Assembly: GCA_964016885.1 (NCBI GenBank)
Contig: OZ024748.1
Span: forward strand, 744,001-808,000
Length of the DNA: 64,000 nucleotides
Direction of reading: 5' to 3'
Origin: Eledone cirrhosa
Taxonomy: Eukaryota
The position numbers were made by a program, and so were the translations under genes. The notes beneath the pieces were generated by a model, which was given only the letters and a program-made list of their open reading frames with translations, had not been told where the DNA came from and made no database searches. Below, piece by piece: positions 30,411 to 53,275 of the stretch (its first letter is position 1; every line of letters starts with the position of its first letter).

Positions 30411-30990
30411 ATTTCGTTTCTGAATTTGTTTAGCAAGATTCTTTATCTGAAATCGTGTGTTGAAACCGATATTGTTATACTTTGGGAGGGTCATGTTGCC
30501 AATAAGAAACACACGCACCAGTTGCTTTCACTTTAATTTATTATATATTTATAAATTTACAAATTTATAAATTTCTGGTTGGTTGGTTGGTTCCACAACC
30601 AGATAGTTGTTTATATATATATAGTCATAGTTCTTTCGTCACACACTCTGTGACCTCTTCAGTGACTGGGGATTTCTTTCTTCGTTTCTGTGCCTTTCCT
30701 TTCTTCTATCCTACGCCATTTTGTTTGTGTGTGGGTTGCGTGCTCAGTTTGCGCATGCGCCACATCCGGGTGTCTGTGTGTGTTTGTGTTCATTTTTCTA
30801 TTTTTCTATTTATATTTTTCTATTTGTTTGTTTATTTATTTATTTATTGTTGGTTGGTTGTTTGTTCTATGTGTGTGTGAAATTTATAAATTTGTAAATT
30901 TATAAATATATAATAAATTAAATTGAAGTGAAAGCAACTGGTGCGTGTGTTTCTTATTGGCAACATGACCCTCCCAAAGTATAACAATAT
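30411..30990 (-). mobile_element. Inverted-repeat Penelope-like element, copy 1, with internal hammerhead
   Basis: Inverted arms 30469-30575 / 30879-30990; 58-bp unpaired extension 30411-30468; flanked by (TA)n; homologous to 52822-53275. Confidence 0.8.
30623..30667 (-). ncRNA. Minimal type I hammerhead ribozyme motif
   Basis: AGUCA-CUGAAGA-G-GUCACA(GAGUG)UGUGAC-GAAA-GAAC-UA-UGACU: 5-bp stem I, 6-bp stem II with one extra G, CUA site between 30628 and 30627. Confidence 0.75.
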
Positions 30991-33900
30991 ATTTATATAT
31001 TTATATATATATATATATTTATATTTATATTTATATATATATATATTTATATATATATATATATATTTATATATTTATATATATATATATATATATATAT
31101 ATATATTTATATTTATATATATATATTTATATTTATATATATATATATATATTTATATTTATATATATATATATATTTATATATATATATATATATATTT
31201 ATATATATATTTATATATATATATATTTATATATATTTATATATATATATATATATATTTATATATATATATATATATTTATATATATATATAATTATAT
31301 ATATATATATATAATTATATATATATATATATATTTATTTATATATATATATATTTATATATATATATATATATATAATTATATATAAATATATATATAT
31401 ATAAATATATATATATATAAATAAATATATATATATATATATAATTATATATATATATATATAATTATATATATATATATATATATATATATATATATAT
31501 ATATTATATATATATATATATATATATATATATAATTATATATATATATATATAAATATATATATATAATTATATATATATATATAAATATATATATATA
31601 TATATATATAATATATATATATATATATATATAAATATATATATATATAATATATATTTATATATATATAAATATATATATATATATATATATATATATA
31701 TATATAAATATATATTATATATATATATATAAATATATATATATATATAAATATATATATATATATATATATAATATATATATATATATATAAATATATA
31801 TATATATATATATATAAATATATATGTATATATATATATATATATATATAAATATATATGTATATATATATATATATATATATATATATATAAATATATA
31901 TGTATATATATATATATATATATATATATATATAAATATATATGTATATATATATATATATATAAATATATATGTAATATATATATATATATATGTATAA
32001 ATATATATGTATATATATATATATATATATGTATAAATATATATGTATATATATATATATATATATATATATATATAAATATATATGTATATATTTATAT
32101 ATATAAATATATATGTATATATATATAATTATATATATGTATATATATAAATATATATGTATATATATATAATTATATATATGTATATATATATATATAT
32201 ATATATATATAAATATATATGTATATATTTATATATATAAATATATATGTATATATATATAATTATATATATATATATAAATATATGTATATATATATAA
32301 TTATATATATATATATAAATATATATAATATATATATATAATATATATATATATATATATATAAATATATATATATATATATATAAATATATATGTATAT
32401 ATATATATATATATATATATAAATATATATGTATATATATATATATATATATAAATATATATGTATATATATATATATAAATATATATGTATATATATAT
32501 ATATATATGTATATATATATATATATATATAAATATATATGTATATATATATATATATATAAATATATATGTATATATATATAATTATATATATAAATAT
32601 ATATATATATATATATAAATATATATGTATATATATATATATATATATATATAAATATATATGTATATATATATATATATATATAAATATATATGTATAT
32701 ATATATATATAAATATATATGTATATATATATATATATATGTATATATATATATATATATATAAATATATATATATATATATATATATATATAAATATAT
32801 ATGTATATATATATATATATATATATATATATATATATATATATATATAAATATATATGTATATATATATATATATAAATATATATATATATAAATATAT
32901 ATGTATATATATATATATATAAATATATATGTATATATATATAATTATATATATATATATATATATAAATATATATGTATATATATATATATATAAATAT
33001 ATATGTATATATATATAATTATATATATATAAATATATATGTATATATATATATATAAATATATATGTATATATATATATATATATATATATATATATAT
33101 ATAAATATATATGTATATATATATATATATAAATATATATATATATAATTATATATATATATATAAATATATATGTATATATATATAATTATATATATAT
33201 ATATATATAAATATATATATATGTATATATGTATATATATATATATATATATATATAAATATATAATTATATATATATATATATAAATATATATATATGT
33301 ATATATATATATATAAATATATATATATGTATATATATATAAATATATATATGTATATATATATATATATATATATGTATATATATATAAATATATATAT
33401 ATATATATATGTATATATATATATATATATATATGTATATATATATAAATATATATATATATATATATATGTATATATATATATATATGTATATATATAT
33501 ATATATAAATATATATATGTATATATATATAAATATATATATGTATATATATATAAATATATATATGTATATATATATATATATATGTATATATATATAA
33601 ATATATATATATGTATATATATATAAATATATATATATGTATATATATATAAATATATATATATGTATATATATATAAATATATAAATATATATATATGT
33701 ATATATATATAAATATATATATATGTATATATATATAAATATATATACATATATATATTTATATATATATACATATATATATATTTATATATATATAAAT
33801 ATATATATATATATATATTTATATATATATATATATGTATATATCATCATCATCATCATCATCAACGTTTAACGTCCGTGTTAAACGTTGATGATGATGA

Positions 33901-34236
33901 TGATGATGATATATACATATATATATATAAATATATATGTATATATAAATATATATATATGTATATATATATAAATATATATACATATATATATTTATAT
34001 ATATATACATATATATATATGTATATATATGTATATATATGTATATATATATAAATATATATATATATATATATATATATATATATGTATATATATATAA
34101 ATATATATACATATATATAAATATATATACATATATATATATATATATATATATATATATGTATATATATATAAATATATATACATATATATATTTATAT
34201 ATATATACATATATATATATATTTATATATATATAT
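30991..34236. repeat. Long compound (TA)n microsatellite
   Basis: Direct reading. Confidence 0.97.
33843..33910. repeat. Palindromic fusion of two RTE/SINE 3' tails
   Basis: (ATC)n-AACGTTTAAC-GTCCGT-GTTAAACGTT-(GAT)n. Confidence 0.85.
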
Positions 34237-52069: not shown

Positions 52070-52752
52070 TCTGATGGGGTAGGTGTGAGTGTATGTACAA
52101 GTCAACCAACATAAGCCTTTTATTTCTAAATTTTCTAAACTATCTAAGTATTTGACTCTAACCATTATTTTAAGTATTACCACCCCACATTAATTCCTCA
52201 ATTTGTATGTGTGGATGTGTGTGTGTGTCTGTGGAGGTGGGTGCGAGTGTACGTGCAAACCAACCTACATAAGTCTTTTTATTTGTAAATTTTCTACTCT
52301 AACCATAATTTTCAGTAGCACCACTCCACATAAATTCCTCAATTTAAGAATGACCTGTAGTATCTATTTCATACTATTAACCTTAATTGAATATATATCT
52401 GACCAGGAATGCTTTTTGTGAAAATCAGTCATATGGAACTATTGTCATCTTGCCTGACGGTTTGAATTTTACAACACCACCTGCCTCTTTGAGGTCAAAT
52501 ACCAACTATACTAGCATCTACAAACTGACCAATGAGAATTAAGACTATTCCTGCTGACAACATTAAATTATTCCTAACAAGCTCATATGTCCCAAGACTC
52601 TGATACCATCAACACTATAAACATAGAGCTGGCATATCTAAGAACTGACTAACTGCCTGATGAGGTCATAGCCATTCAATGGCTATCATCGAAATATATA
52701 TAGCAGTAAATAAAGGATTATGAGTTCATGCAATTGACTTGTGTTTCGTCAC
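52070..52752 (+). mobile_element. Penelope-like pLTR remnant: ~120-bp direct repeat, then hammerhead and AATAAA
   Basis: Repeat 52075-52204/52231-52345; hammerhead 52652-52707; AATAAA 52709-52714; ends in (TA)n. Confidence 0.6.
52652..52707 (+). ncRNA. Minimal type I hammerhead ribozyme (Penelope-type)
   Basis: ACUGC-CUGAUGA-GGUCAUAGCCAU(UCA)AUGGCUAUCAUC-GAAA-UAUAUA-UA-GCAGU: 5-bp stem I, 11-bp stem II with G-C first pair, palindromic UAUAUA, AUA site after 52702. Confidence 0.88.
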
Positions 52753-52821
52753 TATATATATATATATATATATATATATATATATATATATATATATATA
52801 TATATATATATATATATATAT

Positions 52822-53275
52822 ATTTCGTTTCTGAATTTGTTTAGCAAGATTCTTTATCTGAAAACGTGTGTTGAAACTGATATTGTTATACTTTGGGAGG
52901 GTCATGTTGCCAATAAGAAGCACACGCACCAGTTGCTTTCACTCCAATTTATTATAACACACACAGACACCCGGATGTAGCACATGCGCAAACTAAGCAC
53001 ACAACACACACAAAAACAAGATGGCGTATGACAGAACGAAGGAGAGGCACAAAACAAAGAAAAGAATCCCTGGTCACTGATGAGGTTACAGAATGTGTGA
53101 CGAAAGAACTTTGACAATATATAAACAACCATCCGGTTGTGGAGTCAACCAACCAACCGGATATTTATAAATTTTTTAAAATTTATAATTAAATTTTTAA
53201 TAAATTGGAGTGAAAGCAACTGGTGCGTGTGTTTCTTATTGGCAACATGACCCCCCCCCCATAGTATAACAATAT
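52822..53275 (+). mobile_element. Inverted-repeat Penelope-like element, copy 2 (core inverted relative to copy 1)
   Basis: Arms 52880-52954 / 53198-53275; same 58-bp left extension as 30411-30468; internal segment is the reverse complement of ~30576-30785. Confidence 0.8.
53073..53115 (+). ncRNA. Minimal type I hammerhead motif (homolog of 30623-30667)
   Basis: GUCA-CUGAUGA-G-GUUACA(GAAUG)UGUGAC-GAAA-GAAC-UU-UGAC; CUU site after 53111. Confidence 0.7.

What the first reader, a model, noticed from the sequence alone, without database searches (positions are those of the whole stretch)
30411..53275. Two-copy inverted-repeat ribozyme element whose core is flipped between copies
Seen: 30411-30990 and 52822-53275 share the same outer ends (left ATTTCGTTTCTGAATTTG..., right ...GTATAACAATAT) and have 75-110 bp inverted arms. 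Both sit directly in (TA)n. The hammerhead-containing segment between the arms points left in copy 1 and right in copy 2. Inference: either arm-to-arm recombination inverts the core (a flip-flop cassette), or PLE-type replication with template jumps repeatedly yields inverted pLTR structures with the same two end points. It looks like a MITE but carries a ribozyme.
Basis: partly seen in the sequence, partly recalled or inferred. Interest (0 to 1): 0.8.

Follow-up and report, generated by a model that had tools for sequence, protein, structure and literature searches.

The report
One-tailed head-to-head Penelope insertions
The two look-alike cassettes are separate insertions of a very abundant Penelope-like jumping gene, each made of two shortened copies of its end joined head to head, so nothing has to flip; the notable point is that nearly every such insertion has a short extra tail on exactly one side, which likely records how the element is copied into both strands of its target.

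Summary
In detail: same outer ends, inverted arms, (TA)n flanks, hammerhead motif in opposite directions. The flip-flop reading does not. Both copies are pairs of 5'-truncated 3' ends (pseudo-LTRs) of one Penelope-like retroelement joined head to head. A full 4.15-kb unit with RT, Zn-linker and C-terminal GIY-YIG lies elsewhere; a 19-mer of the end has 28,438 exact matches. The element ends at two fixed points 58 bp apart: with and without the 'tail'. In a position-ordered sample, 37 of 38 inverted insertions carry exactly one tail; the tailed arm is longer in 16, shorter in 18, tied in 3, and arm lengths run from 31 bp to several kb. Copy 1 has the tail on its long arm, copy 2 on its short arm; their break points and subfamilies differ, so one is not the flip of the other. 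Inverted copies and a one-sided tail are published for these elements. What this adds is the near-strict one-tail count, best explained (inferred) by two primings at one (TA)n break; fold-back plus deletion is the live rival. Ribozyme activity is untested.

The parts
30411..30468 (-). Copy 1: 58-bp tail (in the full unit this sequence follows the pLTR and runs on into the start of the next unit)
30469..30879 (-). Copy 1: long, tailed arm = last 406 bp of the element's 3' UTR / pLTR, 5'-truncated
30620..30670 (-). Copy 1: minimal type I hammerhead motif (core, 6-bp helix II, extra base between positions 9 and 10.1, 2-bp helix III, 5-bp helix I)
   Evidence: no Rfam match
30880..30990 (+). Copy 1: short, tail-less arm = last 111 bp of the pLTR, inverted to the long arm; junction at about 30879-30881
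52822..52879 (-). Copy 2: 58-bp tail
52880..52956 (-). Copy 2: short, tailed arm = last 76 bp of the pLTR
52956..53275 (+). Copy 2: long, tail-less arm = last 329 bp (unit coordinates) of the pLTR, 5'-truncated; 1-bp overlap at the junction
53069..53119 (+). Copy 2: minimal type I hammerhead motif
   Evidence: no hammerhead family in Rfam at E<=10
28449..34236 (.). TA-rich array holding copy 1 (target)
52753..52821 (.). (TA)n run left of copy 2 (target)

Best explanation
Each copy is an independent insertion of a (TA)n-associated Penelope-like retroelement (RT, CX4CxxC linker, C-terminal GIY-YIG; Neptune/Nematis type by motifs), made of two 5'-truncated copies of its 3' end joined head to head, one ending with the 58-bp tail and one without, and both arms were likely reverse-transcribed in one event, one from each strand of a break in (TA)n. 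Shown: the identity of the arms, the two fixed end points, the one-tail rule, independent arm lengths, same-subfamily arms, short overlaps or fillers at junctions. Inferred: the endonuclease cuts both strands of (TA)n; one 3'-OH primes on the RNA at the tail-less site and the other at the site 58 nt further 3' (both sites read AATAT then CG in the full unit, so a TA primer could pair at either); each cDNA stops at a variable point; the two cDNA ends are joined by end repair or a template jump. The apparent flip is only whether the tailed cDNA ran further (copy 1) or less far (copy 2). Odds: identity and 'no flip needed' about 0.95; two-priming mechanism about 0.6.
For: Full unit of 4,152 bp between two pLTR ends in L034, tail running into the unit start, 919-aa frame with RT and endonuclease motifs; Pfam RVT_1 E 0.0009 and GIY-YIG E 0.00016, both under the curated cut-offs; 81 homologues at E<=1e-20. 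28,438 exact matches of a pLTR 19-mer, control 0; 13,195 tailed and 14,339 tail-less-plus-TA ends, about 1:1. Coverage falls steadily from the 3' end. 37 of 38 inverted insertions with both ends readable have exactly one tail (binomial p 3e-10); tailed arm longer 16, shorter 18, tied 3; lengths uncorrelated, rho 0.18, p 0.27. In 15 of 36 the tailed arm is more than 50 bp shorter than the tail-less arm: neither arm can then be a plain DNA copy of the other; this includes young cases such as L043 (arms 0.3% apart, 1,067 vs 2,815 bp). Tail variant agrees with hammerhead variants on the opposite arm in 19 of 20; partner arm ranks in the closest tenth in 21 of 36; L081/L082 arms 99.8% alike over 3,919 bp against 98.4% for the next copy printed. 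49 of 54 tailed and 45 of 54 tail-less ends are followed by ATAT. In vitro, a Penelope protein cuts and extends both strands, prefers AT-rich DNA, starts reverse transcription at two sites that bound the tail, and is predicted to be a dimer (PMC11167929).
Against: Near-symmetric insertions are in excess: 6 of 36 have arms within 10 bp against 1.1 expected, p 0.0006, which fold-back synthesis predicts. Exceptions to the rule: one two-tailed insertion (L059) and 2 tail-less of 13 among similarity-picked loci (L003, L019). Arm closeness can also come from gene conversion or from waves of one subfamily, and is not seen for copy 2 itself (rank 0.93 on 74 bp) nor for L037, L057, L063, L070. The sample is the first 20 Mb of one contig. 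No target-site duplication can be read in (TA)n. No biochemical test on this family. Copy 2's own junction was not spanned by any listed read piece and copy 1's was not checked in reads.
Confidence: 0.65

Rival explanations
1. One priming, then fold-back: a single cDNA begun at the tail site snaps back and copies itself to the tail-less point, giving a symmetric palindrome; later deletions at the centre make the arms unequal. Same element, different route.
For: 6 of 36 insertions are near-perfect palindromes, p 0.0006; arms of one insertion are often each other's closest match; self-priming was proposed from junction palindromes in rotifer Penelope (PMC3846280, passages); it explains the one-tail rule directly.
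Against: 30 of 36 are asymmetric by more than 50 bp, half with the tailed arm shorter; very young insertions are already strongly asymmetric (L043, L049, L050, L038: arms 0-1.3% apart, length differences 650-1,750 bp); several junctions hold rearranged element pieces (L032, L039, L044, L051, L079). Two polymerases on one RNA stopping together could also give symmetric arms.
Confidence: 0.27
2. Flip-flop cassette: a fixed element whose core is inverted by recombination between its arms.
For: Same outer ends and opposite core direction in the two window copies. Any inverted repeat can in principle invert what it encloses.
Against: Flipping copy 1 would give arms of 111 and 406 bp, not the 76 and 329 of copy 2; cores are 85% alike and of different subfamilies; there is no fixed cassette: shorter-arm lengths take values from 31 to 1,509 bp; arms of older insertions have drifted apart, up to 12% on simple pairs. 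No recombinase is encoded in the unit.
Confidence: 0.03
3. A self-contained non-autonomous element (MITE or retrozyme) that moves as a 450-580 bp unit.
For: Short size, terminal inverted repeats, hammerhead motif; animal retrozymes are reported to derive from Penelope ends (10.64898/2026.07.22.740005, passages).
Against: No two sampled inverted insertions share both arm lengths; arms grade into endonuclease- and RT-coding sequence; neither window copy is in a tandem array of monomers; L002 resembles copy 2 but has its own break points.
Confidence: 0.03
4. Assembly artefact for one of the orientations.
For: Inverted repeats inside (TA)n are hard to assemble (PMC8557442, passage); copy 2's junction is not spanned by a listed piece.
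Against: Both arrangements occur about equally across 37 loci; raw reads of another study show opposite-strand joints at several places and 1,810 and 1,892 reads running from the tail-less site into (TA)n; arms of one insertion differ from each other.
Confidence: 0.02

Closest known systems
Insertion units of endonuclease-positive Penelope-like elements (Craig et al. 2021, PMC8557442 Fig. 2 legend and text; Arkhipova et al. 2013, PMC3846280; Schostak et al. 2008, PMC2377424)
   Same: [quoted passage not shown]
   Different: Tail is 58 bp, not 30-40; here the one-tail pattern is counted (37 of 38) and the tail is on the long or the short arm equally; the window copies have no coding sequence left.
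Neptune / Nematis clades of PLEs (features as given in PMC8557442)
   Same: C-terminal GIY-YIG, CX2-5CxxC linker (CX4CxxC here), CCHH residues in the endonuclease, hammerhead in the pLTR, microsatellite bias.
   Different: No tree with named references could be built, so Neptune versus Nematis is open; the DKG motif reads DKS.
PAc, Poseidon of Anolis carolinensis, in vitro (Frangieh et al. 2024, PMC11167929)
   Same: Two fixed end points bounding a tail; AT-rich target; hammerhead in the terminal region.
   Different: Other clade; PAc start sites lie in a stem-loop inside the ORF, whereas here the tail lies about 40 nt before the first ATG seen and folds no better than shuffles. The parts read do not treat inverted insertions.
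Minimal hammerheads of metazoan PLEs (Cervera and de la Pena 2014, PMC4209133)
   Same: Type I core, large helix II, a base between positions 9 and 10.1, G10.1-C11.1 pair, weak helix III expected to need a dimer.
   Different: Each window copy has one motif only, so no partner in cis; loop III is self-complementary only with two central mismatches.
Twin priming of LINE-1 (recalled, from no call)
   Same: Both target strands prime and the two cDNAs are joined head to head.
   Different: In LINE-1 the two cDNAs cover different parts of the RNA; here both start at the 3' end, at fixed sites 58 nt apart, so the arms repeat each other.

Membership tests
EN+ Penelope-like element | ORF with RT and GIY-YIG endonuclease linked to the repeat | tested here: met
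   L034, L081, L082 frames of 863-919 aa directly upstream of the same pLTR; RVT_1 E 0.0009, GIY-YIG E 0.00016, both below Pfam's cut-off
EN+ Penelope-like element | Partial tandem forming pLTRs | tested here: met
   L034: pLTR, tail, 4,152-bp unit, pLTR, plus an inverted copy
EN+ Penelope-like element | Variable 5' truncation with adjacent inverted copy | tested here: met
EN+ Penelope-like element | Optional tail at one end | tested here: met
   58-bp tail; 37 of 38 with one tail
EN+ Penelope-like element | Target-site duplication | tested here: inconclusive
   flanks are (TA)n on both sides
Neptune/Nematis (not Penelope/Poseidon, Naiad, Hydra) | C-terminal endonuclease with CX2-5CxxC linker and CCHH residues | tested here: met
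   read from the translation against the features
Neptune clade proper | Groups with named Neptune RTs in a tree | not testable with these tools
   no named reference PLE sequences were returned
Minimal type I hammerhead ribozyme | Conserved core, helices I-III, base between 9 and 10.1 | tested here: met
   109 motif hits in the loci; the common variants differ at N7, loop II, loop III, the cleavage-site base and the outer end of helix I; feature list
Minimal type I hammerhead ribozyme | Match to an Rfam hammerhead model, or fold better than shuffles | tested here: not met
   none at gathering score in the window, none at E<=10 in 4 loci; z -1.25 and 0.04
Minimal type I hammerhead ribozyme | Self-cleavage | not testable with these tools
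   needs an in vitro assay
MITE | Fixed length and fixed internal sequence between terminal inverted repeats | tested here: not met
   arm lengths differ at every sampled locus
Invertible (flip-flop) DNA cassette | Same segment between the same crossover sites in two orientations | tested here: not met
   break points 111/406 vs 76/329 and different subfamilies
Invertible (flip-flop) DNA cassette | Both orientations at one locus in reads | tested here: inconclusive
   no piece spans copy 2; copy 1 not checked
Non-LTR retrozyme | Tandem 170-400 nt monomers without coding link (recalled size range) | tested here: not met
   copies are dispersed, head to head, and continue into the ORF

The most novel reading that the evidence does not exclude
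Penelope-type elements integrate by concerted double priming: a dimer uses both strands of one (TA)n break, each subunit obliged to start at a different one of two fixed AUAU sites on the same template, so every complete product is a head-to-head insertion with exactly one tail. This genome, with more than ten thousand ends of each kind, would be a natural read-out of that mechanism.
Probability: 0.45. Interest if true: 0.55.

Novelty: new member of a known kind. Interest (0 to 1): 0.3.

Why it matters
As a structure it is ordinary for Penelope-like elements. Its use is as a test bed: how inverted pLTR insertions and the tail arise is named as open in PMC8557442 (section 15) and is not settled in the parts of PMC11167929 read here. 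A family with about 13,000 tailed and 14,000 tail-less exact ends lets one count, from the assembly alone, whether each event uses both start sites once, whether both arms share a template, and whether asymmetry is there from the start.

Tried and rejected
Rfam: no match at gathering score over the window; no hammerhead family at E<=10 in 4 loci. The repeat finder was swamped by (TA)n. Idea that the tail is a hairpin bringing the two start sites together: some variants fold so but z is -0.09, 0.24 and -0.82; not supported. Idea that 5' break points cluster at the hammerhead: 6 of 49 lie just upstream of the core, but a scan test gives p 0.54; inconclusive. Hammerhead dimer folding gave no active dimer shape. 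Target-site duplications cannot be read. No RNA holder listed. Reads: copy 2's junction not spanned; copy 1 not checked. No earlier finding on this sequence or genome. Rows left out of the 37-of-38 count: inverted arms that do not reach an end or are interrupted (L060 first, L069, L073, L076, L077), one at a region edge (L048), L081/L082 (about 4 kb of other sequence between the arms), and all single-arm insertions; counted as tailed were L056 (tail lacks its last few bases) and L066 (the arm is part of the tail only; left out, hence 36).

Full report
Observation. The two stretches are as described. BLAST of one against the other gives three blocks: the left 140 columns direct at 96.4%, a 325-column block inverted at 84.9%, and the right end direct at 86%. 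Arms are 112 columns in copy 1 and 81 in copy 2. A hammerhead-type motif is on the minus strand in copy 1 (30620-30670) and the plus strand in copy 2 (53069-53119). Both touch (TA)n.

What it is. A search of the window's genome (3.0 Gb) with copy 2 gave 3,947 candidates, 40 scored. Most matches cover the long arm and continue upstream into shared sequence that encodes a GIY-YIG endonuclease with a cysteine linker. A 19-mer of the end has 28,438 exact matches, reversed control 0. I fetched the surroundings of the first 100 matches listed (65 regions on contig C1) and 9 wider regions of earlier loci. L034 holds pLTR, tail, a 4,152-bp unit, pLTR, and an inverted copy; its 919-aa frame has RT motifs, a CX4CxxC linker and a C-terminal endonuclease with CCHH residues. 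By the features listed in PMC8557442 this is Neptune/Nematis type. The best homologue is a hypothetical protein named from Octopus vulgaris, 66% over 85% of the query; the host is likely an octopus (inference). The window copies are the last 76-406 bp of this unit.

Two end points. Copies end either at the pLTR end or 58 bp further, and in the full unit both points read AATAT then CG. Genome-wide exact counts are 13,195 tailed and 14,339 tail-less followed by TA (different patterns, so only a rough ratio). 49 of 54 tailed and 45 of 54 tail-less ends in the C1 sample are followed by ATAT. This is why the window copies share outer ends.

The one-tail rule. Of 38 inverted insertions in the C1 sample with both ends readable, 37 have one tail, 1 has two, none has none (p 3e-10). 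Among 13 more from similarity-picked loci, 11 have one and 2 have none. The tailed arm is longer in 16, shorter in 18, tied in 3; lengths are uncorrelated. Junctions: short overlap 19, blunt 3, filler up to 13 bp 10, longer filler 4, of 36. Copy 1 is a long-tailed case, copy 2 a short-tailed case. Dropped rows are listed under Tried and rejected.

Why not a flip. Flipping copy 1 would give arms of 111 and 406 bp; copy 2 has 76 and 329. Copy 1 carries one set of tail and hammerhead variants and copy 2 the other. No fixed cassette exists in the sample. Inversion at a single locus cannot be excluded with these data but nothing calls for it.

One event per insertion. Tail variant and hammerhead variants on the opposite arm agree in 19 of 20 insertions. 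The partner arm ranks in the closest tenth of arms in 21 of 36 and is closer than the median overall (p 2e-5), though not for copy 2 and several short arms. L081/L082, two 4-kb arms in inverted orientation, one tailed and one not, are 99.8% alike. Gene conversion could add to this.

Mechanism. In vitro a Penelope protein cuts and extends both strands of AT-rich DNA, starts at two internal RNA sites that bound the tail, and is predicted to dimerise. I infer that each target strand primes one cDNA, one at each site, and that the truncated cDNAs are joined head to head. In 15 of 36 insertions the tailed arm is more than 50 bp shorter than the other; there the long arm cannot be copied from the short one and the short one has a tail that the long one lacks, so plain fold-back fails unless a large deletion followed, even in insertions with arms 0.3% apart. 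Against: 6 of 36 are near-perfect palindromes, more than chance (p 0.0006), as self-priming predicts. I put two primings at about 0.6 and fold-back plus deletion at about 0.27.

Ribozyme. The motif has the features of minimal PLE hammerheads, including the base between positions 9 and 10.1, and its common variants spare the conserved core. Rfam does not detect it and it folds no better than shuffles. Such motifs are reported to need a dimer or protein and to cleave weakly. Each window copy has one motif; activity at these loci is unlikely and untested.

Reads. Public runs hold the family. Raw DNA reads of another study show 1,810 and 1,892 reads passing from the tail-less site into (TA)n and opposite-strand joints at several positions, but no listed piece spans copy 2. 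Copy 1 was not checked.

Literature seen. PMC11167929: parts 1-2 of 4 (abstract, main text, start of methods). PMC8557442: passages and section 15. PMC3846280, PMC4209133, PMC2377424, PMC7229834 and bioRxiv 10.64898/2026.07.22.740005: passages. No supplements read. Inverted truncated copies and a tail often at one end are in print. Seven searches and the passages read showed no count of tails per inverted insertion and no description of this family; subscription papers and repeat databases were not searched.

Verdict. Real, not a flip cassette, a new member of a known kind. Interest 0.3, mostly for the near-strict one-tail rule as a handle on an open mechanism.

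Noticed in passing
window 51532-52752 (+): 3' end of a second, unrelated Penelope-like family directly left of copy 2's TA run: hammerhead motif at 52649-52708 with a palindromic loop III, 666 candidates in the genome, all 12 loci read end at TA; longer copies carry an endonuclease frame with a CxCX5C linker, the Hydra-clade signature in PMC8557442.
   Followed up: partly
L081 422-4406 and L082 1914-5863: Two near-full-length copies with 863-aa frames, inverted, 99.8% alike, one tailed and one not, about 4 kb of other repeats between them.
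   Followed up: partly
L045 1547-1605, L049 2265-2327, L100 1528-1577: Junction fillers of 48-61 bp made of short reiterated pieces, as from repeated template slips.
   Followed up: no
L059 422-962: The one two-tailed insertion has a further 32-bp tail-less end 39 bp to its right, so it may be two nested events.
   Followed up: no
window 34480-35982 (+) and 53678-55794 (-), 55970-56512 (-): Fragments of LINE-type elements with AP-endonuclease and RT frames (family assignment from recall).
   Followed up: no
window 39128-41003 (+): Broken frames resembling a Tigger/pogo-type transposase (from recall, not searched).
   Followed up: no
P0075: An Octopus vulgaris gene model named as a dynein regulatory subunit isoform has a 79% match over 17% of the element's protein, likely an element piece taken into a gene model.
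   Followed up: no
window 1432-10220, 28449-34236: Very long degenerate TA arrays, 8.8 and 5.8 kb.
   Followed up: no
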